Positions 3,217 through 64,000 are shown, numbered from the stretch's first letter. The stretch is DNA of 64,000 nt from an uncultured Gammaproteobacteria bacterium (GCA_964344415.1 CAYFMS010000001.1:10126-74125), one strand, 5' to 3'. A program made the numbers and translations. Notes: generated by a model not told the origin, from the letters alone.

Positions 3217-3582
3217 ATTTTAGTTACGGATAGATGAGAAAAGTTAGAAAAGCAAGTAAAGTTAGTAAAATCGAAGAAAGAGACAAAAGAGATTTATGAG
3301 ATTGGAGAGATTCTAGTCGCAATTTGAACAGATCCTTCGACAGGCTCAGGATTTCAAATAATGTTACCCTCTTCCTGTCATTTCGACTAAGGCCGAAGGC
3401 CGCATGGAGAAATCTACTTAATGCGTAGAAGTTAAGAGGGAGAGTAAAGTTAGTAAGGTCGGAGAAAGAGACAAAAGAGATTTAGGAGATTTATTAGCTT
3501 GTAGGTTAGACTACACCCTACACCCTACTCCCTAAAACCTATACCCTAACGCAGTATACCAATTTTCTGCTAAGATACGGGC
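3217..3582. repeat. Mosaic intergenic repeat cluster A
   Basis: Two ~48 bp direct repeats at 3256..3306 and 3444..3491 (gtaaagttagtaa..tcg.agaaagagacaaaagagattta.gagatt). It shares module M3 (gagattggagagattctagtcgcaa) with 26955..26995 and module M4 (agatccttcgacaggctcaggatttc) with 8272..8300 and 26993..27020. A poly-pyrimidine ccctacaccctactccctaaaaccctataccc tract sits at 3505..3560. Confidence 0.7.
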
Positions 3583-4302
3583 ATGAATGAACAGCAATCA
3601 TCAGGATTTCTCCTTATCGATAAACCAGCCGGAATGACATCACATGATGTTGTTGATCGACTTCGACGCATTACCGGAATACGAAAAATTGGCCATGCTG
3701 GCACACTCGACCCTTTTGCGACGGGGCTTCTTATTCTTGCCATCGGACGATCGGCCACAAAGCGTATTCAAGAATTTGTGAAGCTTGATAAAGTCTATGA
3801 AGCAACATTTGTAATTGGCGCTACGACGGAAACGCTCGATACGGAATCTGAAATTGAAATAGATGAGCATTTTAAAGCTCCCTCGCAAGAACAGGTCGAG
3901 CAAACAGTAAAGACATTCATTGGGAAGCAAAAGCAGATTCCTCCAAAATATTCCGCTATCAAGAAAAATGGAAAAAAGATGTATGAACTCGCTCGAGCCG
4001 GTAAAGAAATCGAAATTGAACCAAGAGATATAGAAATTTTTGATTTTCAGCTTATTGGTGAAATGCACAAAACAGATATCGGCCTTAAAATTCCTGTCAG
4101 TATTCATGTGTCTTCTGGCACCTATATTCGAAGTGTTGCATTCGATCTTGGAAATAAGCTCGGCACGACAGGATATGTGAATCGCTTGCGACGCATTAGC
4201 ATCGGCGACCATCATGTGAAAGATGCGTATCAACTTGATAAGCTGTCTTCAGAGAATTGGATTGATTTTGTTCTTGATGATCCAAACTTACAACATAGCT
4301 GA
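3583..4302 (+). CDS. truB: tRNA pseudouridine(55) synthase
   Basis: 239 aa; GHAGTLDPFATGLLILAIG catalytic Asp motif of the TruB family. Confidence 0.9.
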   Translation: MNEQQSSGFLLIDKPAGMTSHDVVDRLRRITGIRKIGHAGTLDPFATGLLILAIGRSATKRIQEFVKLDKVYEATFVIGATTETLDTESEIEIDEHFKAPSQEQVEQTVKTFIGKQKQIPPKYSAIKKNGKKMYELARAGKEIEIEPRDIEIFDFQLIGEMHKTDIGLKIPVSIHVSSGTYIRSVAFDLGNKLGTTGYVNRLRRISIGDHHVKDAYQLDKLSSENWIDFVLDDPNLQHS

Positions 4303-6839: not shown

Positions 6840-8120
6840 TTATTCTTTATTCCAATTCTCTATTTCTTGTTTTATATTTTCTAGTTTAACAAGACGCATT
6901 TCTTTTTCCGATCGCTCTTTCCATTCCGCCGAATCCTCAGTAAGCGTTTTTTCAGAAATGACAATGCGCAGTGGAATTCCAAGCAGATCCGACTCGCCGA
7001 ATCGAGCTCCGGGAGAGATACCATTTCTATCATCCCATAGCACCTCAATTCCTGACTGAATCAAATTTGTATACAGTTCCTCGCTTGTATTTTCAATGCG
7101 AGCCTGAATTGTTTCATCTTTTGATTCAAGTGAGACCAAATGCACCGCAAAAGGAGCCACAGATTTTGGCCAGACAAGACCTCGCTCATCACTCAAGAGT
7201 TCAGCAATTGTTCCCATGAGCCTGCCTGGACCAATGCCGTAACTTCCCATGAAGACGAATTGAGGCTCTCCATTTTCATCAATGTATTTCAAATCAAGAG
7301 GCTCTGAAAATCGTGTTCCAAGCGTAAAAATATTTCCAACTTCAACCGCTTTCGTTTCGCGGAGTGTATCCCTAGAAAGTCCAAGCTGTTCCAGCACCTC
7401 ATCATGCATCACCTCTTCATTCACAGCGATACGCTTTTCTTCATCAATATAAATCGTGTCCTCGCCGGCATCCGTTTCCGTTTGGAATTCATGTGAATAT
7501 TTTGAAAATGCCCCGCCAGATGCAAATGTTACATAGGTTTTTTCTCCAATGCCACAGCGATCAAAGACATTTAAATATGCCTGCTTTGATTCTTCATAAA
7601 ATGCATCATGTTGATCTTTATTGAGTGAAAATGAATAAAGATCTTTCATGATAAATTCGCGCGAGCGCATAATTCCACTCTTTGCACGCAATTCATTTCG
7701 AAATTTGGTCTGAAATTGATACGCCGCCGCCGGTAAATCTCGATATGATCGGATGTGGTTTTTCATGAGATTCGTAATCGGCTCCTCATGTGTCCAACCA
7801 AGCCCGAGCTTTGTTCCATTTTTTAATTCCGTTCTAAACCAAACATCACTTGCTTCATCGCTCCATCTGTCCGTCGTCTGCCAGACATCCTGCCCTTGGA
7901 GTGCCGTTAAAAACAATTCTTGTCCGCCAATTGCATTCATTTCTTCACGAATGATTTGCATCACATTATTAAGGACGCGAAGCCCAAGCGGAAGATACGA
8001 ATAGACGCCAGCCATGTCTTTATGAACATAACCAGACCGAATAAGAAGCTGAGCATTCTTCGCTTGCTCGCCTGCTGGGATTTCTTTTGTTGCCCTTGTA
8101 AATAATTGTGACTGTTTCAT
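6840..8120 (-). CDS. proS: Prolyl-tRNA synthetase, short form lacking the bacterial INS editing domain
   Basis: 426 aa; class II aaRS motifs; N-terminus MKQSQLFTRATKEIPAGEQAKNAQLLIRSGY matches the ProRS consensus. Confidence 0.85.
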   Translation of the reverse strand: MKQSQLFTRATKEIPAGEQAKNAQLLIRSGYVHKDMAGVYSYLPLGLRVLNNVMQIIREEMNAIGGQELFLTALQGQDVWQTTDRWSDEASDVWFRTELKNGTKLGLGWTHEEPITNLMKNHIRSYRDLPAAAYQFQTKFRNELRAKSGIMRSREFIMKDLYSFSLNKDQHDAFYEESKQAYLNVFDRCGIGEKTYVTFASGGAFSKYSHEFQTETDAGEDTIYIDEEKRIAVNEEVMHDEVLEQLGLSRDTLRETKAVEVGNIFTLGTRFSEPLDLKYIDENGEPQFVFMGSYGIGPGRLMGTIAELLSDERGLVWPKSVAPFAVHLVSLESKDETIQARIENTSEELYTNLIQSGIEVLWDDRNGISPGARFGESDLLGIPLRIVISEKTLTEDSAEWKERSEKEMRLVKLENIKQEIENWNKE

Positions 8121-8354
8121 GGCTGCAGTTTAGCAGAGATTTTCAATGGGGTGTAGGGGTGGAACGCCGTTACTAATTTACGGATGGTACAGATATACGG
8201 ATTTAGGTGCGAAGGAGATAAAAGAGATTTATGAGGTTGTAGGTTTTAGGTTGTAGCTTGTAGGCGTAGAAAGATCCTTCGACAGGCTCAGGATTTCGAA
8301 TGCGGTCGCGCAGTGAGCTTGGAAAGGTTGAACCTATTGCAGGCTCACAAGCGA
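8121..8354. repeat. Mosaic intergenic repeat cluster B
   Basis: Contains M2 (tacagatatacggatttaggtgcgaaggaga), M1 (gtaggttttaggttgtagcttgtagg), M4 (agatccttcgacaggctcaggatttcgaatgcggtcgcgcagtga) and a terminal hairpin cacaagcgac + T-run also seen at 13956..13972. Confidence 0.7.
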
Positions 8355-9901: not shown

Positions 9902-9977
9902 GCGTTGTTAGCTCAGCTGGTAGAGCAGTTGGCTCTTAACCAATTGGTCGGAGGTTCGAGTCCTCCACAACGCACCA
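9902..9977 (+). tRNA. tRNA-Lys (anticodon CTT)
   Basis: 76 nt: acceptor GCGTTGT/ACAACGC, anticodon loop ctCTTaa, T-arm GGTTCGAGTCC, encoded CCA. Confidence 0.9.
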
Positions 9978-10044
9978 AAAGATCTTCGATATTTATGTCG
10001 GAGATTTTTTGTTTGTGGAGGACGAGGAACCTCCATTAAAGAAA

Positions 10045-10074
10045 TAAAAAACAGCCTTTTCTGGCTGCTTTTTT
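10045..10074. terminator. Bidirectional terminator (tRNA pair / rnc convergent)
   Basis: cagcc-ttttct-ggctg hairpin flanked by A6 and T6. Confidence 0.6.
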
Positions 10075-10075
10075 A

Positions 10076-10768
10076 CTACCACCCCTTTGCTTCGAGTGCA
10101 TTTGCTGCGGCAGCGATCTGAGCTTCTTGTTTACTCGTCCCCTTCCCTTCCGCTACCAATTCCTTTCCAAGATAGGCTCCGACACGAAATACCTTATTAT
10201 GGTCTGGCCCTGTTTCTTCAAGAACCTTATAAGAAGGCGTGATAGATGTTTCAGCTTGCGCAGATTCCTGAAAACGACTCTTTGGGTCAATGTAAAGCTT
10301 TTTCTCAAGAATCTCTGGAAGCGTAGACAAAACATGATTATGCACAAATTTCTTTGCTTCATCCCAGCCAGAATCGATATAAATTGCACCGATAATCGCT
10401 TCCATGGTATTCGCCAAAATATATCGACGCGCCTTTGAATTGCGATCCTTTCTCTCACCTCGAGATAAATAAAGGTAATTTTCAATATCCAAACTCTCTC
10501 CGATATTTGCCAAATTTTGCCCATTTACCACAGCGGCTCGCCAATTCGTCAATTCACCCTCGGGCTCATCATAATTTTCGTATAAATGCTCTGTGACGAC
10601 CAATTCCAGAACAGCATCACCTAAAAATTCTAGCCGCTCATTATGATCAAGTGGGAAATCATGATTTTCATTTAAATAAGATCTGTGAACAAGCGCCTGC
10701 CTGAAATGACCACCTTCGATAATGGGTACATCAAGCGCATCAGCTAAACTCTGAATTTCTTTATCCAT
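10076..10768 (-). CDS. rnc: Ribonuclease III
   Basis: RNase III signature ERLEFLGDAVLELVVTEHL plus a C-terminal dsRBD; the likely start is M14 (MDKEIQSL), giving 10768, since the ORF-track start at 10807 would overlap nusB. Confidence 0.9.
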   Translation of the reverse strand: MDKEIQSLADALDVPIIEGGHFRQALVHRSYLNENHDFPLDHNERLEFLGDAVLELVVTEHLYENYDEPEGELTNWRAAVVNGQNLANIGESLDIENYLYLSRGERKDRNSKARRYILANTMEAIIGAIYIDSGWDEAKKFVHNHVLSTLPEILEKKLYIDPKSRFQESAQAETSITPSYKVLEETGPDHNKVFRVGAYLGKELVAEGKGTSKQEAQIAAAANALEAKGW

Positions 10769-12619: not shown

Positions 12620-13303
12620 ATGACGAATTATCTGAAATCATTTTTGTTTCTTGGCGGCCTTCTTCTTATTGGTGCCGGTTGTTTTCAATCAGCGGATCAA
12701 ATCGAACCGCTTGCCAGTGGAGAAACCGAGACAGCAAATGACACCCCTGTTCTTATCCATGAATTAACTGATGGCTCATATTCCATGAATGAAGAAAGCT
12801 CTGTACGATGGACCGGATATGGAATTGGAAAATCTCATACAGGAACATTTGATATTTCAGAGGGCGCATTCACTGTTACAGATGGGATGATTTCTGATTT
12901 TTCTGTCACTATCGATACGACAAGCTTCACAAGCGACGATATACAAAATCCTAGTTTGCGCGAAGGATTCGACAATCACTTGAAGTCAGCCGATTTTCTT
13001 GATGTTGAGAGCTTTGCAACCGCTCAGGGAATTTTGTCAGGAGATATCAATAATGTGAATGATAATACATATTCATATTCCATGGACCTCACGATTAAAG
13101 GCGAAACTGAATCTGTTCAAGGTGAATTTGATGTAGAAAGCGCTGATGATAGTGCAATCACGCTCAGCAGCTCGATAGCTATTGATCGTACCGTCTGGGG
13201 AATCACATCTCGAAGCAGTAATTTCTTCGATAATTTAGGTGATGAGCTCATCGAAGACAATGTCGACCTTGAATTCTCTCTCGATCTTTCACGTGTTGAA
13301 TAG
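12620..13303 (+). CDS. Lipoprotein with YceI-like domain
   Basis: Signal plus lipobox LIGAGC; SSVRWTGYGIGKSHTGTFD resembles the start of a YceI beta-barrel. Confidence 0.45.
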   Translation: MTNYLKSFLFLGGLLLIGAGCFQSADQIEPLASGETETANDTPVLIHELTDGSYSMNEESSVRWTGYGIGKSHTGTFDISEGAFTVTDGMISDFSVTIDTTSFTSDDIQNPSLREGFDNHLKSADFLDVESFATAQGILSGDINNVNDNTYSYSMDLTIKGETESVQGEFDVESADDSAITLSSSIAIDRTVWGITSRSSNFFDNLGDELIEDNVDLEFSLDLSRVE

Positions 13304-14025
13304 TTGCTGAGTAATGCAGTTGACTCGGTATCTGTTTATGTTTCGTAAACCAGGATACCGTGTCATCCCGGACGGAGCGAAGCGGAGATCCGGCCTGCCT
13401 GCCGGCAGGCAGGGAACCATCGCCAAGTGCCATCCCGAGCCCTGCCTGCCGGTAGGCATGGATCTCTTGTTTTCATCTTACTTTTCTTTAAAGAAAAGTA
13501 AGCAAAAGAACGCCGCCAGTGCTCGCTTTGTCACATGCATAAAGCGTCATCGCTCGGGCAAAACAGAGAGTAGGAATGTCTTTATTTTTCTTAATACAGT
13601 GGTGCGTTCATTCCTATCGGCTGTTTTGCAATTCCTCGCTCTTGCCGCATGCAATGTGACAGTCTCGCAGGTGGCAGCAGTTTCGGAAATGAAGGATATA
13701 AGGTAAATATTGGTCGCTTGTGAGTTGGATGATATTTCGTTGAAGTTTGAGTAGCGGAATGAGCCGTACTGGAATGTACGGTGAATGAGCAGTAAGTAGA
13801 CGAGAGGCTCATTCGTGTGGATCCCAAATTTAATTTGGGATTTCGAACGCGGTCGCGAAGTGAATGAGATGCTATTTCGGTGAAGATCGAGCACACGCAG
13901 TAAGGCGCACTGAAAGGTGCGACGTCGAGTAGCGCAGATCTGAGCCGGAAGAGCGCTCATTCACAAGCGACTTTTTTGATTTATTTACTTTCTTTATGGT
14001 TAAATAAAACTGAAAGGAGGTCGCG
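13304..14025. repeat. Mosaic intergenic repeat cluster D
   Basis: Perfect palindromes ctgcctgccggcaggcag (13395) and cttacttttctttaaagaaaagtaag (13470). The segment 13440..13690 is an inverted copy of 27000..27250. Two degenerate ~85 bp tandem units lie at 13720..13800 and 13860..13945. An 11 bp long-range stem gtcgcttgtga (13712) pairs with tcacaagcgac (13956), followed by T6. Confidence 0.75.
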
Positions 14026-14271
14026 ATGAACGGCAATTTCTACAGCGCGTATAATCGCGCTGATCCTGATTCTATCTTCGTACTGCGTCTACGCCATGGA
14101 AATGGCATGAGACGCGTAGGGGCCGTTTTACTGAAATACGGCATCGAACCGTATGAAATGGACGCGGAAAAACATATCGTCACTCTCCTGCGCAAATCAA
14201 CCGATCGCGAAATCGGACATGGCGCAGGGCTAACAATGAACCCATTAATCAAATACTGGGAACAATTGTAA
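14026..14271 (+). CDS. Hypothetical small protein (81 aa), GC ~48%
   Basis: Strong SD AAAGGAGG 7 nt upstream; no recognisable domain. Confidence 0.5.
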   Translation: MNGNFYSAYNRADPDSIFVLRLRHGNGMRRVGAVLLKYGIEPYEMDAEKHIVTLLRKSTDREIGHGAGLTMNPLIKYWEQL

Positions 14272-14295
14272 ACACGAGACTCGAGAGGGTCTTTT

Positions 14296-16821
14296 TTATG
14301 ACTTCGACGATTTCTCTACCTCTTTTTCTACTTCAGCAACTTCTTTTGCTACATCACCAACTAATGCCAAACTTGAAACCTTATCTCCCGCTTTCTTGAA
14401 CCGCATAATACGCACACCTTGCGTTGCTCGACCGAGTTTTGAAACAGATTTGAGCGCCGTTCTAATCACCTGACCAGCTTTCGATATGATAAGCATATCT
14501 CTAGCATCACTAGACTCAACGATTCTTGCCGAAACAAGCTGACCTGTTTTTGGGGTAATCTTACCCGTACGAATTCCACTTCCGCCACGTTTTTGTACTT
14601 TATATTCTTTAACCGGTGTACGCTTTCCGTAACCATTCTCTGAAGCAACAAGAAGCAATGAATCCTTATCACCCGTCAAAACAATACCCATACCAACAAT
14701 GCGGTCATCACCTTTCATTTTTACACCACGAACACCAGCCGCAACTCGACCCATAGATCGCACATCACTTTCTTTGAATCGAATAGACATTGCATTTGCT
14801 GTCACGAGCATGACATCTGCCTCACCGTCCGTTGCTCGAACCCATTCAAGCGAATCACCGCCTTTCAATTTAATGGCAATAAGTCCACTACGCCTTACAT
14901 TCGCAAAATCTTCCATGGCCGTTTTCTTCACCGTTCCCGACACCGTGACCATCATGATGTATTTCTTCCCCTCAAGATCGCGAGAAGACATATGAGCCGT
15001 CACTTTTTCACCCGGAGCAAGCTGCAAGAAATTTACAATCGCCTGCCCTTTTGCAGTTCGTGTCGTTTCTGGAATCTCATAGACTTTCAACTTAAAGACT
15101 CGACCACGTGATGTGAAGAACATCATTTCCTGATGTGTCGATGTAGAGAAAATTGCTTCAACGGTGTCCGCCTCTTTTGTTGCAAGACCAGCAACACCCT
15201 TTCCGCCACGAGACTGAGCACGGAAGGTGTCAGGAGCAATACGCTTGATATAACCATCCTTTGTCATCATAACAATGGTTTCATTGTCAGGGATGACATC
15301 TTCAATTCGGAAATCCTTAATACCCGTTTTTACGATTTTCGTTCGACGCTCTGTTGCATATGTATCGCGCATCGTTTCAATTTCATCACGGATCACACCA
15401 AGCATTTTCTTTTCAGATTTCAAAATAGATTCCAGTTCCTTGATGAGTTTCATTTTCTCATCATATTCTTTCTCAATGCGAATACGTTCAAGATTGGCAA
15501 GATTCTGAAGGCGCATTTCAAGAATGGCAACCGCCTGCCGTTCACTCATCTTGAATTTCTTCATCAAATTGAGGCGCGCTTCCTCTTTATCTTTTGATTT
15601 CTTGATTGTTTCAATAACCTTATCAATTTTTTCAAGCGCAATCTTTAACCCTTCCAAAATATGAGCTCGGTCCTGAGCACGCTCGAGATCAAATTCCGTT
15701 CGACGGCGCACTACTTCCTGCCTATGCTTAATAAATTCTTCGAGCATTGGCTTAATACCAAGTACTCGCGGCTGAATCCCATCCACAAGCGCAACCATAT
15801 TGTAATGGAATGTCGTCTGAAGTGATGTTGTTTGATAGAGCCGATTCAGCACTTTGCGCGGGTAGGCATCTTTTTTGAGTTCAATAACCATGCGAACACC
15901 ATCCTTATTCGATTCATCACGCAAATCTCTAATACCATCGAGTTTCTTTTCCCGCACCAAGTTGGCGATTTTTTCAAGAAGCGCTGCCTTATTCACCATG
16001 TATGGAACAGATGAAATAATAATATTATGAGAACCCTTTTTCCCTTCAACAATTTCCGCATCGGCGCGAACAACAACACCACCCTTTCCAGATGCCATCG
16101 CTGCTTGAATATCCTTTTGACCATATGCCGTTGCTCCCGTCGGGAAATCAGGACCCTGCATATGCTGCATCAAATCCTCGACCGTTGCATCTTTATTATC
16201 GATGAGTTCAATTACGGCATTACAAACTTCACCCAGATTATGCGGAGGAATATTCGTTGCCATACCAACCGCAATTCCAAGCGTTCCATTCACAAGAAGA
16301 TTTGGCGTCTTAGCAGGTAAAACTGACGGTTCTTTATGCGAGCCGTCATAGTTCGGACGAAAATCTACCGTATTTTTTTCAATATCCGTCAAAAGATGCT
16401 CAGCGATTGATTCGAGCTTCGCCTCCGTATAACGCATAGCCGCAGCTCCATCGCCGTCCATCGAACCGAAGTTTCCCTGACCACGCACCAAAGGATGACG
16501 ATAAGAGAAGTCCTGAGCCATTCTCACCATGGCTTCATAAATAGACGAGTCACCATGAGGGTGATATTTCGCCATCACCTCACCAACAACATTCGCCGAC
16601 TTTCTAAATTTCGCATTGGCGCGCAGACCAATCGTCCACATCGCATATAAAATACGTCGCTGTACCGGCTTTAATCCATCACGAATATCCGGCAAAGCTC
16701 GCGAAACGATAACCGACATCGCATAATCAAGGTATGCGCGCTTCATTTCATCTGTAATGCCCTGATCGATAATTTCTCCCGCTGGCTTCCCAAGCGGCAA
16801 TTTCTGATCTTTCTTTTTCAT
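14296..16821 (-). CDS. gyrA: DNA gyrase subunit A
   Basis: 841 aa; [11 protein letters not shown] active-site Tyr region, YHPHGD motif, C-terminal beta-pinwheel repeats. Confidence 0.95.
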
Positions 16822-25806: not shown

Positions 25807-26844
25807 CTAAAAACCTAAATTTGGATTCGCCTTTAATGAAAGTGGGTCTGTAAAATGATGTTGACGCGCTCTAAAATATCCAGCTGCCGCAATCATTGCT
25901 GCATTATCAAGCGTATAGGCAAAATCCGGCTGAGCGAATTTCACATCAAGAGATTTCATCTGCTTTTTCATCCGATTGCGCAATTCAATATTCGCGGAAA
26001 CACCTCCAGCAATAACAACCGTTTTTGCATTATACGTTTTCAGAGCACGCATTGTTTTTCGTACAAGAACATCTACAACAGCTTCTTGAAATGATGCTGC
26101 AATATCGGATCGAAATGACGGATCGTCCATTTGATCCTCATGCTTGCGAAGTGTGTAGAGTACCGAGGTTTTTAAGCCAGAAAAACTAAAATCAAGATTC
26201 GGGCGATCAAGTAAACCTCGTGGAAAATCAAAAGCCTGCGCATCGCCGCTTTTTGCTAGCTTTGCTATTTCGGGACCACCCGGATAAGGCAGTCCAAGCA
26301 TTTTTGCAACTTTATCGAATGCCTCGCCTGCGGCATCGTCGAGTGTTTCTCCGATCCGTTCAAATACACCATGATCCTTCATGAGAACTAATTCTGTATG
26401 TCCGCCCGACACCAAAAGTGCAAGCAGTGGAAGCTCTGGCGGTTTTGAATCCAACCAATTGGCATAAATATGCCCTTCAAGATGCGAAACGGGAATGAGA
26501 GGCTTTTCCCATGACCATGCAAGCGTTTTCGCGACCTCTACACCCGTTCGAAGTGCCGGCGACAGTCCGGGACCCGCTGTAACCGCAATGGCATCTATGC
26601 CCCTTCCCTTTGGATTCACATGCTTTTGCAAAAGTGGAAATATTTTTTCGAGATGCTGTCTTGCCGCGATTTCAGGTACAACACCTCCATGCTCGGCATG
26701 AATGTCGGCCTGCGAAAAAATAACCGATTTTTTCACCTTTAATCGGTCACTTTTTGCGCGGATAATGGCAATTGCCGTTTCATCGCAACTTGTTTCAATT
26801 CCTAATATATTCACGCGCTTATTCTGCCTTAAAGTGATGGACAC
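25807..26844 (-). CDS. tsaD: tRNA N6-adenosine threonylcarbamoyltransferase TsaD (Kae1/YgjD family)
   Basis: ILGIETSCDETAIAI N-terminal motif and HLEGH metal site. Confidence 0.9.
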   Translation of the reverse strand: MSITLRQNKRVNILGIETSCDETAIAIIRAKSDRLKVKKSVIFSQADIHAEHGGVVPEIAARQHLEKIFPLLQKHVNPKGRGIDAIAVTAGPGLSPALRTGVEVAKTLAWSWEKPLIPVSHLEGHIYANWLDSKPPELPLLALLVSGGHTELVLMKDHGVFERIGETLDDAAGEAFDKVAKMLGLPYPGGPEIAKLAKSGDAQAFDFPRGLLDRPNLDFSFSGLKTSVLYTLRKHEDQMDDPSFRSDIAASFQEAVVDVLVRKTMRALKTYNAKTVVIAGGVSANIELRNRMKKQMKSLDVKFAQPDFAYTLDNAAMIAAAGYFRARQHHFTDPLSLKANPNLGF

Positions 26845-27310
26845 AGCAAGTCATATGCCGAGTGCAAAGTAAGTAGCTGGTAGGTTTTAGGTTGTAGCTT
26901 GTAGGGTTGCCGTTACAGATTTATGAATAGTACAGATATACGGATTTAGGTGCGAAGGAGATTTAGGAGATTGGAGAGATTCTAGTCGCAAAAAGATCCT
27001 TCGACAGGCTCAGGATTTCGATGTCCGAAACTGCCGCCACCTGTGAGACTGTCACACTGCATGCGGCAAGAGCGAGGAATTGCAAAACAGCCGATAGGAA
27101 TGAACGCATCATTGCATTAAGAAAAATAAAGACATTTCTACTCTCTGTTTTGCCTGAGCGATGACGCTTATGCATGTGACAAAGCGAGCACTGGCGGCGT
27201 TCTTTTGCTTACTTTTCTTTAAAGAAAAGTAAGAAGAAAAAACAAGAGATCTTTCCCGACTTCGCTCTGTGAGCTACGGCGGACAGGCGTATTCACTCGA
27301 GATGACGGAA
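26845..27310. repeat. Mosaic intergenic repeat cluster C
   Basis: Modules M1, M2, M3, M4 in the same order as cluster B, followed by the ~250 bp segment (27000..27250) that is the reverse complement of 13440..13690 at ~90% identity, including the aaagaaaagtaag palindrome. Confidence 0.75.
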
Positions 27311-27378
27311 TGAAGAACCACAATCGTGAGGTGAGAATGTTGACTTTTCTTGTGGCACACCTTAATGTTTCGACAGTT

Positions 27379-28494
27379 ATGAAAGTAGCACTTACACATG
27401 ATCATATGATCCAAAACGGGGGTGCTGAGCGTGTCCTCGAAGTCTTGCAGGACATGTGGCCCTCTGCCCCAACCTATACGCTGCTTTATGATAAGAAAAA
27501 AATGGATTCAACCTTCGGTCACAGAGATATTCGCACCTCATTTCTTCAATCCATTCCTTTTTCCCTAAAAAAATACCGCTGGCTGCTTCCCTTCATGCCA
27601 ACGGCGACAGAGCAATATAATCTTTCCGAATTCGAAGTCATCGTATCGAGCTCAAGCGCTCTGTCAAAAGGCATTATCCCCCCTGAATTTGGCTTACATA
27701 TTTGTTACTGTCATACGCCCCCACGATATTTATGGACAGATACATATGATTACATTCAATCCATGCGTGCGCCACGGCTCGCAAAACTTGCCCTTCCGCT
27801 GCTCATGAACTATTTACGTATGTGGGATCGAGCATCTGCCGATCGCGTTGATTTTTTTATAGCAAACTCAGAAACGGTCAGACATCGAATTAAACGTTTT
27901 TACGGAAGAGATTCCGTCGTCATTCACCCTCCGGTAAGTATTGAAAAGTTTAAGATATCGAAAGAACCGAAGCGATATTTCCTCATCGGCGGACGGCTTG
28001 TCCCCTATAAGCGCTATGACATTGTTATAGAAGCATTCAACAAACTCGGACGTCCTCTGAAGATTTTTGGAGATGGACCCCAGATGAAGGAATTACAAAA
28101 GCTTGCTAAACCAAATATTGAATTCCTTGGCAGAGTTTCAGACGAAAAGCGAAGCGAATTATTTGAAAATGCTATTGGCTTCATTCATCCGCAAGAAGAA
28201 GATTTCGGCATTACACCCGTGGAATCAATGGCGGCAGGCACGCCTGTTATCGCTTATGCAAAGGGTGGCGCAACAGAAACGGTGATCGACGGAAAGACAG
28301 GAATTCTTTTCGATAAACAATGCTGGGAAGAAATCGCTGACACAGTTTTTCATTTTGACGCACATGCTTTTGACCCCGTAGAAATTCGTAAACATGCCGA
28401 GCAATTCAGTGTGCAGAATTTTAGAAAAAAGATCCTCGATTTCACAAAAGACAAATGGCGCCATCACCGCCGAAACGTTTTAAATAGAATATAA
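27379..28494 (+). CDS. Glycosyltransferase family 4 (GT4)
   Basis: EDFGITPVESMAAGTPVIA GT4 C-terminal motif; start taken at MKVALTHDH. Confidence 0.75.
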   Translation: MKVALTHDHMIQNGGAERVLEVLQDMWPSAPTYTLLYDKKKMDSTFGHRDIRTSFLQSIPFSLKKYRWLLPFMPTATEQYNLSEFEVIVSSSSALSKGIIPPEFGLHICYCHTPPRYLWTDTYDYIQSMRAPRLAKLALPLLMNYLRMWDRASADRVDFFIANSETVRHRIKRFYGRDSVVIHPPVSIEKFKISKEPKRYFLIGGRLVPYKRYDIVIEAFNKLGRPLKIFGDGPQMKELQKLAKPNIEFLGRVSDEKRSELFENAIGFIHPQEEDFGITPVESMAAGTPVIAYAKGGATETVIDGKTGILFDKQCWEEIADTVFHFDAHAFDPVEIRKHAEQFSVQNFRKKILDFTKDKWRHHRRNVLNRI

Positions 28495-60975: not shown

Positions 60976-61169
60976 ATTACTGACTTTTTTCTGATCTACT
61001 AAATATCAATTATACGAGGCAAATATTCCTCTTCTCATTTATCGAGAAAAGTGAGTGGAGAGCTGGACAATTAGTACTACTCAGCTGAACACGTTACCGT
61101 GCTTACACTTGTAGCCTATCAACCAGATAGTCTCTCTGGAGTCTCATAACGAAGATTAATCTTGGAATC

Positions 61170-61202
<33 letters not shown>

Positions 61203-61325
61203 GAACCGAATGTCGCTACCCAGCAATGCCCTTGGCAGGACAACTGGTACACGAGAGATTCGTTCACCCCGGTCCTCTCGTACTAGGGGCGAGTTTCCTC
61301 AATCTTCAACGCGCGCAGCGGATAG

Positions 61326-61444
<119 letters not shown>

Positions 61445-61983
61445 GAACCTCCCCGTCGCTGTGGACGCTTGGGGGAGACCAGCCTGTTATCCCCGGAGTA
61501 GCTTTTATCCGTTGAGCTTCCGCCGTCCTATATCGAACGGTCGGATCACTAGCTTCTGCTTTCGCAACTGCTCGACATGTCAGTCTTGCAGTAAAGCTGG
61601 CTTATGCGCTTGCACGTCCAGCCCGATTTCCATCCGGGCTAAGCCAACCTTTGTAAACGCCTCCGTTACTTTTTGGGAGGCTACCGCCCCAGTCAAACTA
61701 CCCATCAGATACTGTTCCCGCTGCCGGATTCACGGCTGCAGGTTAGGATTCACATAGTACAAGGGTGGTATCTCACTGATGCCAAGGCTCCCACCTATAC
61801 TGAACATGTAAAACATGAACCCAATATCAAACTGTAGTAAAGCTTCACGGGGTCTTTTCGTCCGGCTGCGCGTAATGAGCATCTTCACTCATATCGCAAT
61901 TTCGCCGAGTACATCGTTGGGACAGTTTGGAAATCGTTATGCCATTCGTGCAGGTCGGAACTCACCCGACAAGGAATTTCGCT

Positions 61984-62710
61984 CATTCTGTTACTTTGTT
62001 ACCTTATTGAGCTGGTAACGGACCAAGCTGAGCTTGGCGGTTCGTCGCGAAACGAACTCTACATGTCGCCATGCAGGTCGGACTATATCTTCATCATAAT
62101 GATGTTTGGCATATAGTCTCTGAGGATTCCAGAAATCTAGATGGAACTTTACGATTCATTCTTTGGATGATTTTCGCGATTTTTATCATTCCAGTCTTTT
62201 CAAGATGCATTCCTTCTTCCATTAAATGGAGGATAGAAACAAAGTTCTCGTAATCAGCTTTTTTGGCTGTCTTTAGAGAATATCTTTCAAAAAAGGGTAT
62301 GATTTTCTGAATAAGATCTTTTCGAGATCTTACACAGTATCGCAACAAATTTTCCTTATGATTATCACGACGGCGATTTTGATAAATCGATCCACACTTG
62401 AAATAATCCTTGATTATTTCGAGTGATTCACGACTCTTTTCACCTTGCGTGACAACAAATTCAGGAAAAATTTGCCATCCGGAACTCGTCGTTTTATTGC
62501 GGATAATACTGACCGAGAAGCAACCTTCTCCGTCAACGAATCCACAAATCCATCCAGCTAATTCTGGCCTTTCCTGCTGATTGTCTGGCTTCCTTTCGGA
62601 AACACCTCGTGGATTTTTACTGGGCATACTATGTGTATAGTTTACCCTAGTACCCGAGGATACTCCAGATGTTCCAGCATATAGCCAAATTTTACTAAGG
62701 CAGCTATTCC
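61984..62710 (-). mobile_element. Group I intron in 23S rRNA (inserted after ...CCTAAGGT, E. coli ~1917 region) carrying a LAGLIDADG homing endonuclease
   Basis: Exon continuity ...GGTCCTAAGGT | intron | AGCGAAATTCCTTGTCGGGT...; the intron ends in G. Confidence 0.8.
62094..62627 (-). CDS. LAGLIDADG homing endonuclease (intron-encoded)
   Basis: LAGWICGFVDGEGCFSV motif; 177 aa, single-motif (homodimeric) type. Confidence 0.8.
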   Translation of the reverse strand: MPSKNPRGVSERKPDNQQERPELAGWICGFVDGEGCFSVSIIRNKTTSSGWQIFPEFVVTQGEKSRESLEIIKDYFKCGSIYQNRRRDNHKENLLRYCVRSRKDLIQKIIPFFERYSLKTAKKADYENFVSILHLMEEGMHLEKTGMIKIAKIIQRMNRKVPSRFLESSETICQTSL

Positions 62711-64000
62711 ACCTTAGGACCGTTATAGTTACGGCCGGCGTTCATCCGCGCTTCGGTCGCAAGCTTCTCTACCGAAGTAGATAACCCGCTTCCTTAACGT
62801 TCGGACACTGGCCAGGCATCAGCCCCTATACATCACCTTACGGTTTAGCAGGGACCTGTGTTTTTGATAAACAGTCGCTTCCAATCCTTAGCTGTGGGTC
62901 TTCTTCTCCCGAAGAAAACCAGGCCTTATCCCGAAGTTACGGCCGCTGTTTTGCCGAGTTCCCTAACGATGTTTCTCTCGTACGCCTTAGTGCTTTAACA
63001 CCCACCTACCTGTGTTGGATTTGGTACGGGCACATAATATCTAATCTTAGAGGCTTTTCTTGGCCCACTTTCCTTTCCTCTCCCTGCACAAAGTGCAAGT
63101 CGCGCTGACCCAGAGTCTGATGACCGGCGGATTTGCCTACCAGTCGACCCCAAGCCCCCAATGTCATAGCCATAGGACACAGGAAATTCAAGCAAGCGTC
63201 CCCTCATCGAAATATTACGTGGTGCAGGAATATTAACCTGCTGTGCATCGGCTACGCCTTTCGGCCTCGTCTTAGCTCCCGACTAACCCACAGACGATTT
63301 ACGTTGCTGTGGAAACCTTAGGTTTTCGGCGGACAGGGTTCTCACCTGTCTTTTTGCTACTCATGCCAACATTCTCTCTTCCCATCGCTCCACCATGCCT
63401 CACGACATGACTTCAGCGCCATGGAAATGCTCTCCTACCGCCCAAAGATTCCGGAGAATCAATGGACCCATAGCTTCGGTGTACTACTTAGCCCCGGTAC
63501 ATTTTCGGTACAAGAAAACTTGACCAGTGAGCTGTTACGCTTTCTTTAAAGGATGGCTGCTTCCAAGCCAACCTCCTGGTTGTATGAGTCTTCTCACCAC
63601 CTTTTACACTTAGTAGTAACTTTGGGACCTTAGCTTATGATCTGGGCTGTTTCCCTTTCGACTAATGGAGCTTCGCCCCCATAGTCTGACTGCCAGGAAC
63701 ACATTGTAGTATTCGGAGTTTGGCTCGGTAGGCTACCCGAAGGCGCCGAACCGAATCAGTGCTCTACCCCCACAATGCTATTAACTGACGCTATGCCTAA
63801 ACATATCTCGGAGAGAACCAGCTATTACCGAACTCGATTGGAATTTCTCCGCTAACCACAGCTCATCCAAGCGTTTTGCACCACGCGGTGGTTCGGGCCT
63901 CCACATGCTTTTACACATGCTTCACCCTGGCCATGGTTAGGTCGTCCGGTTTCGGGTCCTATATGAGCGACAAACGCCCGTTAAGGCTCGCTTTCACTCT

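What the first reader, a model, noticed from the sequence alone, without database searches (positions are those of the whole stretch)
13440..13690. ~250 bp segment duplicated in inverted orientation 13.5 kb away (13440..13690 vs 27000..27250)
The two copies are ~90% identical at the nucleotide level and carry the perfect palindrome cttacttttctttaaagaaaagtaag. Both lie in repeat-rich intergenic regions next to module M4.

Substitutions between the copies are not biased toward synonymous positions of the 70-130 codon ORFs that span them (13314..13706, 26963..27175). The element is therefore probably non-coding, for example a larger non-autonomous mobile element or a structured RNA gene family.

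Inverted copies this close together could also mediate inversion of the intervening 13.5 kb.
Basis: seen in the sequence. Interest (0 to 1): 0.55.

Follow-up and report, generated by a model that had tools for sequence, protein, structure and literature searches.

The report
Dispersed hairpin repeat, not a gene
The "inverted duplicate" is two of at least four copies of a ~225-bp non-coding repeat in an uncultivated Patescibacteria genome; it combines a long hairpin with a small palindromic hairpin that also follows the orphan TwoAYGGAY RNA in distant bacteria, which is a modest curiosity.

Summary
Window 13463-13687 and 27024-27249 are inverted copies, about 93-95% identical, and each carries the perfect palindrome CTTACTTTTCTTTAAAGAAAAGTAAG.

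It is not a special pair. The same 768-kb metagenome contig holds at least two more copies about 480 kb away, one of them 100% identical to copy 2 over 227 bp. The genome is Patescibacteria/CPR, near Uhrbacteria. The ~57 kb of gyrA-region DNA fetched from four contigs of its nearest relatives lacks the element, and the 13.3 kb between the copies keeps the ancestral gene order.

It is not coding. Variable columns fall 5/5/5 on codon positions, a 1-bp indel shifts the long ORFs, and the stop codons lie outside the repeat.

The unit is a ~167-nt imperfect hairpin, then a U-tract (UUCUUUUG), then the 26-nt palindromic hairpin. That U-tract-plus-hairpin block is the typical 3' flank of TwoAYGGAY RNAs (Rfam RF01731) in Psychromonas and in JGI metagenome contigs. 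The window's long hairpin lacks the AYGGAY loops and fails the Rfam model.

This is a new variant of a known kind, of modest interest.

The parts
13463..13476 (-). Copy 1: A-rich 3' tail on the proposed RNA strand (TCTCTTGTTTTCAT on +). This is the outer end of the repeated unit.
   Evidence: The four-copy alignment fixes the boundary. The short-read contigs L003 and L002 end at 13462 and 13499.
13477..13502 (-). Copy 1: perfect 26-nt palindrome, a 13-bp (11 bp plus UUAA loop) hairpin.
   Evidence: It is invariant in all 4 copies. The hairpin is shared and covaries with the 3' flanks of TwoAYGGAY RNAs.
13503..13511 (-). Copy 1: U-tract on the RNA strand (GUUCUUUUG; CAAAAGAAC on +), between the long hairpin and the palindrome.
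   Evidence: Invariant in the window copies, in JGI loci L009-L013 and nearly so in Psychromonas.
13512..13678 (-). Copy 1: long imperfect hairpin (~167 nt) with a GC-rich base GCUGCCACC.../...GGCGGC.
   Evidence: Fold z-score is -4.8 on the minus strand and -2.7 on the plus strand. The four-copy consensus has 74 pairs, and single-sided changes are kept as G-U on the minus strand (vs 70).
13679..13687 (-). Copy 1: inner end of the unit (UCCGAAACU on the RNA strand).
   Evidence: Similarity among the copies stops here.
27024..27032 (+). Copy 2: inner (5') end of the unit, TCCGAAACT.
27033..27198 (+). Copy 2: long imperfect hairpin.
27199..27207 (+). Copy 2: U-tract GTTCTTTTG.
27208..27233 (+). 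Copy 2: perfect 26-nt palindromic hairpin.
27234..27249 (+). Copy 2: A-rich tail AAGAAAAAACAAGAGA, the outer end of the unit.
   Evidence: The stretch 100% identical to copy 3 (L007 9926-10152) ends here.
27251..27297 (.). Neighbouring 'GTCATCTCGAG...GGGAAAGA' short-repeat module. It is shared only with copy 4, and a module of this type abuts every copy.
   Evidence: Copies 2 and 4 are similar over 308 bp; alignment A3.
26991..27023 (.). Neighbouring module, the reverse complement of AGATCCTTCGACAGGCTCAGGATTTCG. It is a separate repeat family, also at 3329-3355 and 8272-8299.

Best explanation
The segment is one copy of a lineage-specific, non-coding, dispersed intergenic repeat of about 225 bp. 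There are at least 4 copies on one 768-kb contig of a Patescibacteria genome, and the copy number extrapolates to roughly 10-30 per genome.

The first is a ~167-nt imperfect hairpin with a GC-rich base. It is followed directly by a U-tract (UUCUUUUG) and by a 13-bp A/U-rich palindromic hairpin. The U-tract-plus-hairpin block is the same module that follows TwoAYGGAY RNAs (RF01731) in gamma-proteobacteria. The window element therefore pairs that 3' module (and perhaps weakly similar 5' ends) with a different interior.

Shown: it is a multi-copy family with sharp ends; it was copied recently; it is not coding; the hairpins are conserved; the 3' module is shared across phyla; it is absent from the relatives' loci sampled.

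Inferred: it spreads by an unidentified copy-and-paste process. Once inserted, it is transcribed with its neighbours and acts at the RNA level as a strong hairpin plus U-tract. That would make it an intrinsic-terminator, insulator or 3'-end-protecting module, usable from both directions because the palindrome offers a U-rich half on either strand.
For: Family and mobility:
- Copies 3 and 4 were found in L007.
- Copy 3 is 100% identical to copy 2 over 227 bp, with unrelated flanks.
- Short-read contigs break at the element's edge.
- No copy occurs in the ~57 kb of relatives' gyrA loci, where gyrA ends with ordinary short terminators.

Not coding:
- Variable columns fall 5/5/5 on codon positions, and syn:nonsyn is 4:4, 3:6 and 1:5.
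- Copy 4 changes the 'signal peptide' R->C, L->P and V->D.
- The stop codons lie outside the unit.
- Exhaustive protein searches return only ORFs drawn across the element's own copies.

Structure and strand:
- z = -4.8 on the minus strand against -2.7 on the plus strand.
- The consensus has 74 pairs at -71.8 kcal/mol with six single-sided changes kept as G-U, against 66 pairs at -67.0 kcal/mol with three broken pairs on the other strand.
- This is the same strand on which RF01731 matches next to the block in L009.

Shared module:
- A 34-nt block is identical in L009-L013.
- Psychromonas seed flanks read UCUUUUG-GUUACUUUUCUUU-loop-AAAGAAAAGUAAC, and the authors mark it as a predicted terminator in one copy.
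- 13 pairs are 96% paired, 4 pairs show double changes, and 0/500 shuffles reach the observed score.

Context:
- On the RNA strand, copies 1, 3 and 4 lie downstream of co-directional genes (gyrA, pilD, DDAH).
- Copy 1 lies between convergent genes.
- In JGI loci L009, L012 and L013 the block lies ~50-95 bp past the 3' end of a convergent gene; in L010 the upstream flank is homologous to L012's.
Against: - No transcription data exist, so the RNA role and the strand are inferred.
- The strand evidence is thin: there are only three distinct sequences and no compensatory double changes within the window family.
- A 167-nt hairpin is atypical for an intrinsic terminator, and the simple terminator scan finds nothing at either copy.
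- Copy 2 has no co-directional gene upstream to terminate.
- No mobilising enzyme, terminal inverted repeats or target-site duplication were identified.
- The invariance of the 26-mer in the JGI loci is partly by construction, because they were retrieved with that exact 26-mer. Only the ~9 flanking bases, L009's second copy and Psychromonas are independent evidence.
Confidence: 0.55

Rival explanations
1. It is a DNA-level selfish element only, of MITE, REPIN or PATE type. On this view the perfect palindrome and the long inverted repeat are recognition sites for a transposase or recombinase (for example a Y1/RAYT-like or other enzyme) encoded elsewhere in the genome, and there is no RNA function. 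The similarity to TwoAYGGAY flanks would then reflect a shared mobilisation machinery.
For: - The unit has sharp ends, and one copy is 100% identical at an unrelated locus.
- It is absent from the relatives sampled.
- Every copy abuts the ...R(A/T)CTC end of a 'GTCAT...' hairpin module, which could be a preferred target.
- The termini are conserved while the interior differs between the window type and the TwoAYGGAY type.
- A perfect palindrome suits a dimeric DNA-binding protein.
Against: - The ends of the unit are not inverted repeats, and no target duplication is visible.
- No transposase is present in the ~104 kb of this genome inspected.
- The hairpin tolerates compensatory changes and G-U pairs, which fits RNA or single-strand folding better than duplex recognition.
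- The substitution pattern favours one strand.
Confidence: 0.25
2. It is a family of independent small-RNA genes, a divergent relative of TwoAYGGAY. The sRNA would end at its own stem-plus-U-tract terminator and act in trans, for example as a protein sponge, as proposed for TwoAYGGAY and CsrA.
For: - It has the same layout and strand as TwoAYGGAY: a long closing stem, then UUCUUUUG, then the hairpin.
- TwoAYGGAY is rated 'probably RNA' by its discoverers and has been proposed as a CsrA binder.
- The window RNA strand has two AGGAAU motifs (sequence).
Against: - There is no hit to RF01731 even at E<=10.
- The two AYGGAY loops that define the family, and that would bind CsrA, are absent, and the GGA motifs are buried in the stem.
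- The repeated unit starts only ~9 nt before the hairpin, so no promoter travels with it.
- No csrA was found in the 104 kb held, which is weak evidence.
Confidence: 0.13
3. It is a duplicated small gene, either a ~35-50-aa lipoprotein-like peptide or a type I toxin-like peptide (M-RSFLSAVLQFLALAAC...), with a folded 5' leader.
For: - The 3' arm of the hairpin reads as a hydrophobic peptide with a lipobox-like LAAC.
- Copies 1 and 2 differ there by ATG<->GTG, two synonymous changes and two conservative changes.
- The genome encodes Lgt.
- Type I toxin loci are multi-copy and highly folded (general knowledge).
Against: - Copy 4 has R->C, L->P in the 'lipobox' and V->D.
- Codon positions are hit 5/5/5.
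- The C-termini and stop codons lie outside the repeat and differ in every copy.
- There is no Shine-Dalgarno sequence.
- There are no homologues in 1.8 billion representative proteins other than ORFs across the element's own copies.
Confidence: 0.03
4. The two inverted copies are the switch arms of an invertible 13.3-kb segment.
For: They are in inverted orientation, with exact blocks of 65 and 51 bp that are long enough for homologous recombination.
Against: - The segment holds housekeeping genes such as gyrA, the S1 protein gene, ftsH and tsaD/E.
- The window's order gyrA -> L32-nusB-rnc equals that of relatives.
- Three long assemblies agree with this arrangement.
- Other copies occur in direct orientation elsewhere.
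Confidence: 0.03

Closest known systems
TwoAYGGAY RNA motif (Rfam RF01731; Weinberg et al. 2010, PMC2864571) together with its 3'-flanking hairpin
   Same: - Both are multi-copy, intergenic and not tied to particular genes.
- Both have a very long closing stem.
- Both are followed on the same strand by UUCUUUUG and then the 13-bp hairpin [C/G]UUACUUUUCUUU...AAAGAAAAGUAA[G/C].
- A 34-nt block is identical to that in JGI loci carrying RF01731.
   Different: - The interior has no pair of hairpins with AYGGAY loops.
- There is no Rfam hit at E<=10.
- There is no detectable sequence similarity outside the block.
- The loop of the small hairpin is reduced to UUAA, which makes a perfect palindrome.
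- The small GC hairpin that follows in gamma-proteobacteria is missing.
- The host is a Patescibacteria genome, not gamma-proteobacteria, Clostridiales or gut metagenomes.
Mosaic palindromic intergenic repeats (REP/BIME of enterobacteria, REPINs, ERIC, Correia elements); from general knowledge
   Same: - It is a short non-coding repeat that folds into hairpins.
- It lies between genes and is combined with other short modules in mosaics.
- Such repeats are reported to act as terminators, insulators or mRNA 3'-end stabilisers.
- There is evidence of recent copying.
   Different: - It is much longer than a REP.
- It has no GTAG head.
- It has no terminal inverted repeats or TA/TSD as in Correia elements.
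- The copy density is low (~1 per 30-40 kb).
- No RAYT gene or other mobilising gene has been identified.
Bidirectional intrinsic (Rho-independent) terminators; general knowledge
   Same: A GC-rich stem base is followed directly by a U-rich tract on the RNA strand. The palindrome supplies a U-rich half on both strands. The element lies downstream of genes or between convergent genes.
   Different: The hairpin is ~167 nt instead of 10-40 nt. The element is not found by the consensus scan, and its activity is untested.

Membership tests
TwoAYGGAY RNA (RF01731) | Two adjacent hairpins whose terminal loops carry AYGGAY | tested here: not met
   The window hairpin has a single ~30-nt apical region with no A[CU]GGA[CU] in either strand's loops. 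By contrast, L009 shows ACAGGACG/CAGGGACG and CACGGAUG/CAAGGAUG loops.
TwoAYGGAY RNA (RF01731) | Covariance-model score at or above the gathering score (43 bits) | tested here: not met
   No RF01731 match in window 13200-14300 at E<=10, nor in the whole window at gathering. L009 scores 46 and 53.8 bits.
TwoAYGGAY RNA (RF01731) | Long closing stem P1 (described by the authors as often very large) | tested here: met
   The consensus of four copies has 60 pairs in the long hairpin.
TwoAYGGAY RNA (RF01731) | 3' flank of U-tract plus [C/G]UUACUUUUCUUU/AAAGAAAAGUAA[G/C] hairpin. This is seen in seed flanks but is not part of the Rfam model. | tested here: met
MITE (non-autonomous DDE transposon) | Terminal inverted repeats at both ends of the unit | tested here: not met
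   The unit ends TCTCTTG... and ...AGTTTCGGA are not complementary. The long inverted repeat is internal and stops 50 nt short of one end.
MITE (non-autonomous DDE transposon) | Target-site duplication flanking each copy | tested here: inconclusive
   Only copy 3 shows a possible CGGAA/CGGAA. Copies 1, 2 and 4 do not, and the bases involved belong to the conserved unit end and to the neighbouring module.
MITE (non-autonomous DDE transposon) | A related autonomous element with a transposase in the genome | not testable with these tools
   Only ~104 kb of the 768-kb contig could be read, and no transposase was found in it.
REP / BIME / REPIN | 20-40-nt imperfect palindrome with a conserved head, present in tens to hundreds of copies, with an associated RAYT gene | tested here: inconclusive
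   The mosaic arrangement with other modules is met. The unit's size and head motif do not fit. The copy number (2 per 73 kb unbiased) and the presence of a RAYT gene could not be established.
Small protein / type I toxin gene | A conserved complete ORF with purifying selection | tested here: not met
   Codon positions are hit 5/5/5, syn:nonsyn is 4:4, 3:6 and 1:5, the stops lie outside the repeat, an indel shifts the frame, and there are no homologues.
Intrinsic terminator | A GC-rich stem immediately followed by a U-tract, located after a gene on the same strand | tested here: inconclusive
   The sequence shows ...GGCGGCG-UUCUUUUG on the RNA strand, and 3 of 4 copies follow a co-directional gene. 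However, the hairpin is far longer than the consensus and the scan finds no site. Activity was not tested.

The most novel reading that the evidence does not exclude
The U-tract-plus-palindromic-hairpin block, together with the long closing stem, is the conserved 'chassis' of a previously unrecognised mobile RNA/DNA element family that crosses phyla from gamma-proteobacteria to Patescibacteria. On this reading TwoAYGGAY RNAs are one cargo or interior of that chassis and not free-standing CsrA-sponge sRNAs. The window element would be a new gene-less lineage of it in a CPR genome, moved by an enzyme still to be found.
Probability: 0.15. Interest if true: 0.65.

Novelty: new variant of a known kind. 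Interest (0 to 1): 0.35.

Why it matters
It turns an apparent one-off inverted duplication into a defined repeat family in a Patescibacteria (CPR) genome. Little about repeats and non-coding elements in this group turned up in the literature searched here.

It also links that family to TwoAYGGAY, an orphan RNA motif known since 2010 whose function is still unknown. The conserved 3' hairpin and U-tract appear to be a portable module that can be attached to different long hairpins. If that is right, it suggests TwoAYGGAY-type RNAs belong to repetitive or mobile elements or terminator modules, and it gives a concrete sequence to test for termination or protein binding.

For annotation, it explains spurious ORF calls (137-aa, 59-aa and 130-aa 'proteins') and assembly breaks at these sites.

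Tried and rejected
- **Rfam on the window and on copy 1.** At gathering score and at E<=10 there was no family match.
- **Collection scans with element 22-mers.** JGI metagenomes gave 0 hits. GTDB genomes gave one hit in a Hyphomonadaceae MAG with no extended similarity, so it is a chance match.
- **Viral contigs, phage records and plasmid records.** Nothing was found.
- **Coding hypothesis (small lipoprotein or type I toxin).** I raised it from the LAAC lipobox-like peptide and rejected it after seeing copy 4 and running the codon-position test.
- **Protein searches with element ORFs.** These returned only P0001 and P0003, which are ORFs drawn over the element's own copies, and P0002, a translated tandem repeat judged spurious.
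- **'ORF133 of L009 is the mobilising gene flanked by TwoAYGGAY ends'.** ORF133 has no Pfam or PHROG family. Its two homologues sit in unrelated contexts with no TwoAYGGAY or hairpin. Rejected.
- **Homology of the long hairpin to TwoAYGGAY P1.** nhmmer and BLAST find nothing outside the 34-nt block. A weak 'UUUCC' resemblance at the 5' end is seen only by eye.
- **Walking the contig.** Proteins from fetched loci may not be looked up, so a full copy count was impossible.
- **CsrA.** tblastn against the 104 kb held found no hit. This is uninformative for the whole genome.
- **Literature.** A search for PRJEB17505 and for the palindrome sequence found nothing.

Full report
**1. Observation.** The two segments are real inverted copies.
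- The repeat finder reports arms 13542-13690/27021-27169 (149 nt, 94%) and 13463-13542/27168-27247 (80 nt, 95%), separated by a 1-bp indel.
- BLAST joins them as 13452-13690 vs 27260-27021, at 92.9% over 241 columns and E about 4e-79.
- The perfect palindrome CTTACTTTTCTTTAAAGAAAAGTAAG is at 13477-13502 and 27208-27233, with 0 matches expected in shuffles.
- Copy 1 lies between the convergent genes yceI (12620-13303, +) and gyrA (14296-16821, -).
- Copy 2 lies between the divergent genes tsaD (to 26844, -) and a glycosyltransferase gene (from 27310 or about 27380, +).
- The 13.3 kb in between holds housekeeping genes: gyrA, an MBL-fold protein, a guanylate-kinase-like protein, a ribosomal protein S1-like gene, ftsH, a type II/IV secretion ATPase, smr, tsaE and tsaD.

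**2. Source and taxonomy.** The window is part of a 768,188-bp MEGAHIT contig from ENA assembly ERZ930061 (run ERR2281801, PRJEB17505). GyrA's nearest named relatives are Candidatus Uhrbacteria, Parcubacteria and 'Patescibacteria group' MAGs at 74-78% identity; one partial, unnamed protein reaches 87%. The 23S rRNA is only 70-74% identical to that of E. coli. The host is therefore a CPR/Patescibacteria bacterium.

**3. It is a family, not a pair.**
- An exhaustive search with the 70-aa ORF of copy 2 found a 59-aa ORF (P0001) that matches for 50 residues and then diverges exactly at the repeat's end.
- Its contig is the same 768-kb record, about 480 kb away (L007).
- L007 holds two copies. Copy 3 (9926-10152) is 100% identical to copy 2 over 227 bp, with unrelated flanks. 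Copy 4 (about 1222-1450, with flanks 1175-1481) is 91.6% identical to copy 2 over 308 bp.
- The four-way alignment fixes the shared unit at window 13463-13687 and 27024-27249.
- Short-read contigs from two samples end at 13462 and 13499, at the edge of the unit and inside the palindrome, which is what assemblers do at a repeat.
- An extra 9.3 kb beyond the window start holds no copy. The unbiased density is therefore 2 per 73 kb, and extrapolating to roughly 10-30 per genome is inference.
- None of four loci from the closest relatives (~57 kb) has the element or the hairpin. There gyrA ends with ordinary short terminators. The element is a lineage-specific gain.

**4. Not coding.**
They have no homologues except ORFs over the element's own copies.
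- I did consider a small lipoprotein-like ORF (M-RSFLSAVLQFLALAAC...) in the 3' arm of the hairpin, because copies 1 and 2 differ there conservatively.
- Copy 4 breaks it, with R->C, L->P in the 'lipobox' and V->D.
- The 15 variable columns fall 5/5/5 on codon positions, and syn:nonsyn codon differences are 4:4, 3:6 and 1:5.
- A 1-bp indel shifts the upstream frame, and every copy takes its stop codon from a different flank.

**5. Anatomy.**
- UCCGAAACU;
- a ~167-nt imperfect hairpin with a GC-rich base (GCYGCCACC.../...GGCGGC);
- GUUCUUUUG;
- the 13-bp A/U-rich palindromic hairpin;
- an A-rich tail.

This strand folds better relative to shuffles (z = -4.8 against -2.7). In the four-copy consensus it has 74 pairs at -71.8 kcal/mol, with six single-sided changes all kept as G-U and one broken pair. 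The other strand has 66 pairs at -67.0 kcal/mol with three broken pairs. The copies are too alike for compensatory double changes, so this strand evidence is suggestive only. No sigma-70-like promoter or consensus terminator is detected. The repeated unit begins only ~9 nt before the hairpin, so no promoter travels with it.

**6. The link to a known RNA.**
- A scan of JGI metagenomes with the palindrome plus GC returned five loci (L009-L013).
- Beyond the 26-mer used as bait, all five share the preceding C and the following AAAAGAA, giving an invariant 34-nt block CTTACTTTTCTTTAAAGAAAAGTAAGCAAAAGAA.
- These contigs have ~40% GC and carry secretin, purB, lysA, transketolase and aminotransferase genes. 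These are biosynthetic and outer-membrane functions not expected in CPR.
- In L009-L012 the block adjoins a different long multi-hairpin with compensatory changes.
- In L009 that hairpin matches Rfam RF01731 (TwoAYGGAY RNA) on the opposite strand, at 46 bits against a gathering score of 43.
- A second TwoAYGGAY copy in L009 (53.8 bits) is followed by a degenerate version of the block, GAUUUUUUG-GUUACUUUUUC-AUCC-GAAAAAGUGAC.
- The original Stockholm alignment of Weinberg et al. 2010 (PMC2864571, supplementary file 99) shows the same in Psychromonas ingrahamii. Each of many dispersed TwoAYGGAY copies is followed by UCUUUUG-[G/C]UUACUUUUCUUU-UGCUGUUG-AAAGAAAAGUAA[C]- and a small GC hairpin. In one copy the authors' SS_TT line marks the hairpin as a predicted transcription terminator.
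- Across window, JGI and Psychromonas sequences the 13 pairs are 96.4% paired. Four pairs change on both sides (10 cells), and 0 of 500 shuffles reach the observed covariation score.
- Caveat: invariance of the 26-mer in the JGI loci is by construction. The independent evidence is the flanking bases, L009's second copy and Psychromonas.

**7. Member of TwoAYGGAY?** No. The window hairpin lacks the two AYGGAY loops, gets no RF01731 hit even at E<=10, and has no detectable similarity to the JGI or Psychromonas interiors. It shares the long closing stem, the strand, and the U-tract-plus-hairpin 3' module. I therefore call it a new variant that uses the same 3' module with a different interior. 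In L013 the block follows yet another, short, hairpin. That suggests the block is a portable unit.

**8. How it most likely works.**

Shown:
- It is a dispersed, recently copied, non-coding repeat with conserved hairpins.

Inferred:
- On the RNA strand the GC-rich base of the long hairpin is followed at once by UUCUUUUG and then by the U-rich half of the palindrome. This is the layout of an intrinsic terminator.
- The palindrome presents a U-rich half on either strand.
- In the gamma-proteobacteria-like loci a small covarying GC hairpin followed by CCUUACUUUUCUUU faces the other way, ~50-95 bp downstream of a convergent gene in L009, L012 and L013. L010's upstream flank is homologous to L012's.
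- In the window genome copies 1, 3 and 4 lie downstream of co-directional genes (gyrA, pilD, a DDAH-family gene). Copy 1 is between convergent genes. Copies 2-4 sit ~55-130 nt upstream of the next gene's start, where a separate repeat module carrying a TATAAT-like box precedes the ATG.

I therefore favour an intergenic terminator, insulator or 3'-end-protecting hairpin module that spreads by an unknown copy-and-paste process.

Against this reading:
- There are no expression data.
- The hairpin is very long for a terminator.
- Copy 2 has nothing upstream to terminate.
- No mobilising enzyme, terminal inverted repeats or target duplication were found.

**9. Rivals.**
- **A purely DNA-level selfish element.** The palindrome would be a protein site. 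Every copy abuts the ...RWCTC end of a 'GTCAT...' hairpin module, a possible target.
- **A trans-acting sRNA related to TwoAYGGAY.** A CsrA-sponge role has been proposed for that family (Gardner and Eldai 2014, PMC4333381). The GGA loops are missing here.
- **A small peptide gene.** Largely refuted (section 4).
- **An invertible segment.** The window's order gyrA -> (yceI, sodB) -> L32-nusB-rnc matches that of relatives and of three long assemblies, so no inversion is fixed. Minority variants need reads.

**10. Dead ends.**
- L009's 133-aa ORF sits between two outward-facing TwoAYGGAY units and looked like a candidate cargo or mobilising gene. It has no family, and its homologues elsewhere are not flanked by such units.
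- The first metagenome scan, the genome scan, and the viral, phage and plasmid searches were empty or gave a chance hit.

**11. Verdict.** The thing is a lineage-specific dispersed hairpin repeat in a Patescibacteria genome. It shares its 3' hairpin and U-tract module with TwoAYGGAY-type repeats of gamma-proteobacteria. It is a new variant of a known kind, and interest is modest (0.35). The cross-phylum sharing of the module and the unknown function of TwoAYGGAY leave a small chance (about 0.15) of something more general, namely a portable or mobile RNA/DNA chassis.

Noticed in passing
window 26845-26965 (-), 8121-8262 (-), 3465-3582 (+); L007 9822-9925 (-): A second repeat family lies immediately upstream of gene starts (tsaD, the gene at 6840-8120, the gene at 3583-4302, and ligA). 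It reads ...ATCTCCTTCGCACCTAAATCCGTATATCTGTACCATCCGTAAATTnGTAACGGCA-ACCCTAC..CCTAC.., then ~20 nt (CTATAAT in the ligA copy), then ATG. It looks like a shared promoter or leader module, and it abuts copy 2 of the element.
   Followed up: partly
window 13366-13462 and 27251-27297; L007 9897-9925 and ~1160-1222; L009 3031-3054; L013 ~3465-3490: Short hairpin modules of the form GTCATYYCG...loop...GGAWCTC sit directly next to every copy of the element. They also occur ~55 nt from the block in two gamma-proteobacteria-like JGI loci. They could be a preferred insertion target or a co-travelling module.
   Followed up: partly
window 13393-13412; L007 copy 4 flank: A GC-rich perfect palindrome, CCTGCCTGCCGGCAGGCAGG, is nested inside the GTCAT modules at two loci. 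This is a further REP-like mini-repeat.
   Followed up: no
window 61051-64000 (-): The partial 23S rRNA spans 2950 nt for Rfam model positions 668-2925 (2258 nt). That implies ~690 nt of insertion sequence with no group I intron hit at gathering score. Insertions in rRNA are typical of CPR bacteria (general knowledge).
   Followed up: no
L009 3110-4060; Psychromonas NC_008709 4227504-4230471 (from PMC2864571 supplement): TwoAYGGAY RNAs occur as outward-facing inverted pairs with the hairpin block at the outer ends. In L009 they flank a 133-aa ORF of unknown family, and in Psychromonas the pair is ~2 kb apart. In RNA orientation the window copies 1 and 2 have the same outward-facing geometry, but around 13.3 kb of housekeeping genes. 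ORF133 homologues elsewhere lack the RNAs.
   Followed up: partly
window 13547-13960 (-), 13314-13706 (+), 26963-27175 (-); L007 10001-10180: ORFs drawn across the repeat are present in public protein collections as predicted proteins (P0003 137 aa, P0001 59 aa). They are almost certainly annotation artefacts.
   Followed up: yes
window 26827-26844 and 27310-27380: Start codons given by the mechanical ORF list are probably too far upstream. tsaD likely starts at the ATG near 26831, and the glycosyltransferase gene near 27380 (MKVALTHDH...). Exact-sequence look-ups with the longer versions failed.
   Followed up: partly
window 13712-13814 vs 13851-13962; 14026-14271 (+): The spacer between copy 1 and gyrA holds a diverged tandem-like duplicate (67% identity). 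It also holds a called 81-aa ORF with no Pfam match. Short-read contig L005 breaks at 13942.
   Followed up: no
P0002: A 565-aa 'protein' made of ~9 tandem repeats matched the hydrophobic ORF at 37% identity (E = 7e-17). It looks like a translated satellite and a compositional artefact, unrelated to the element.
   Followed up: partly
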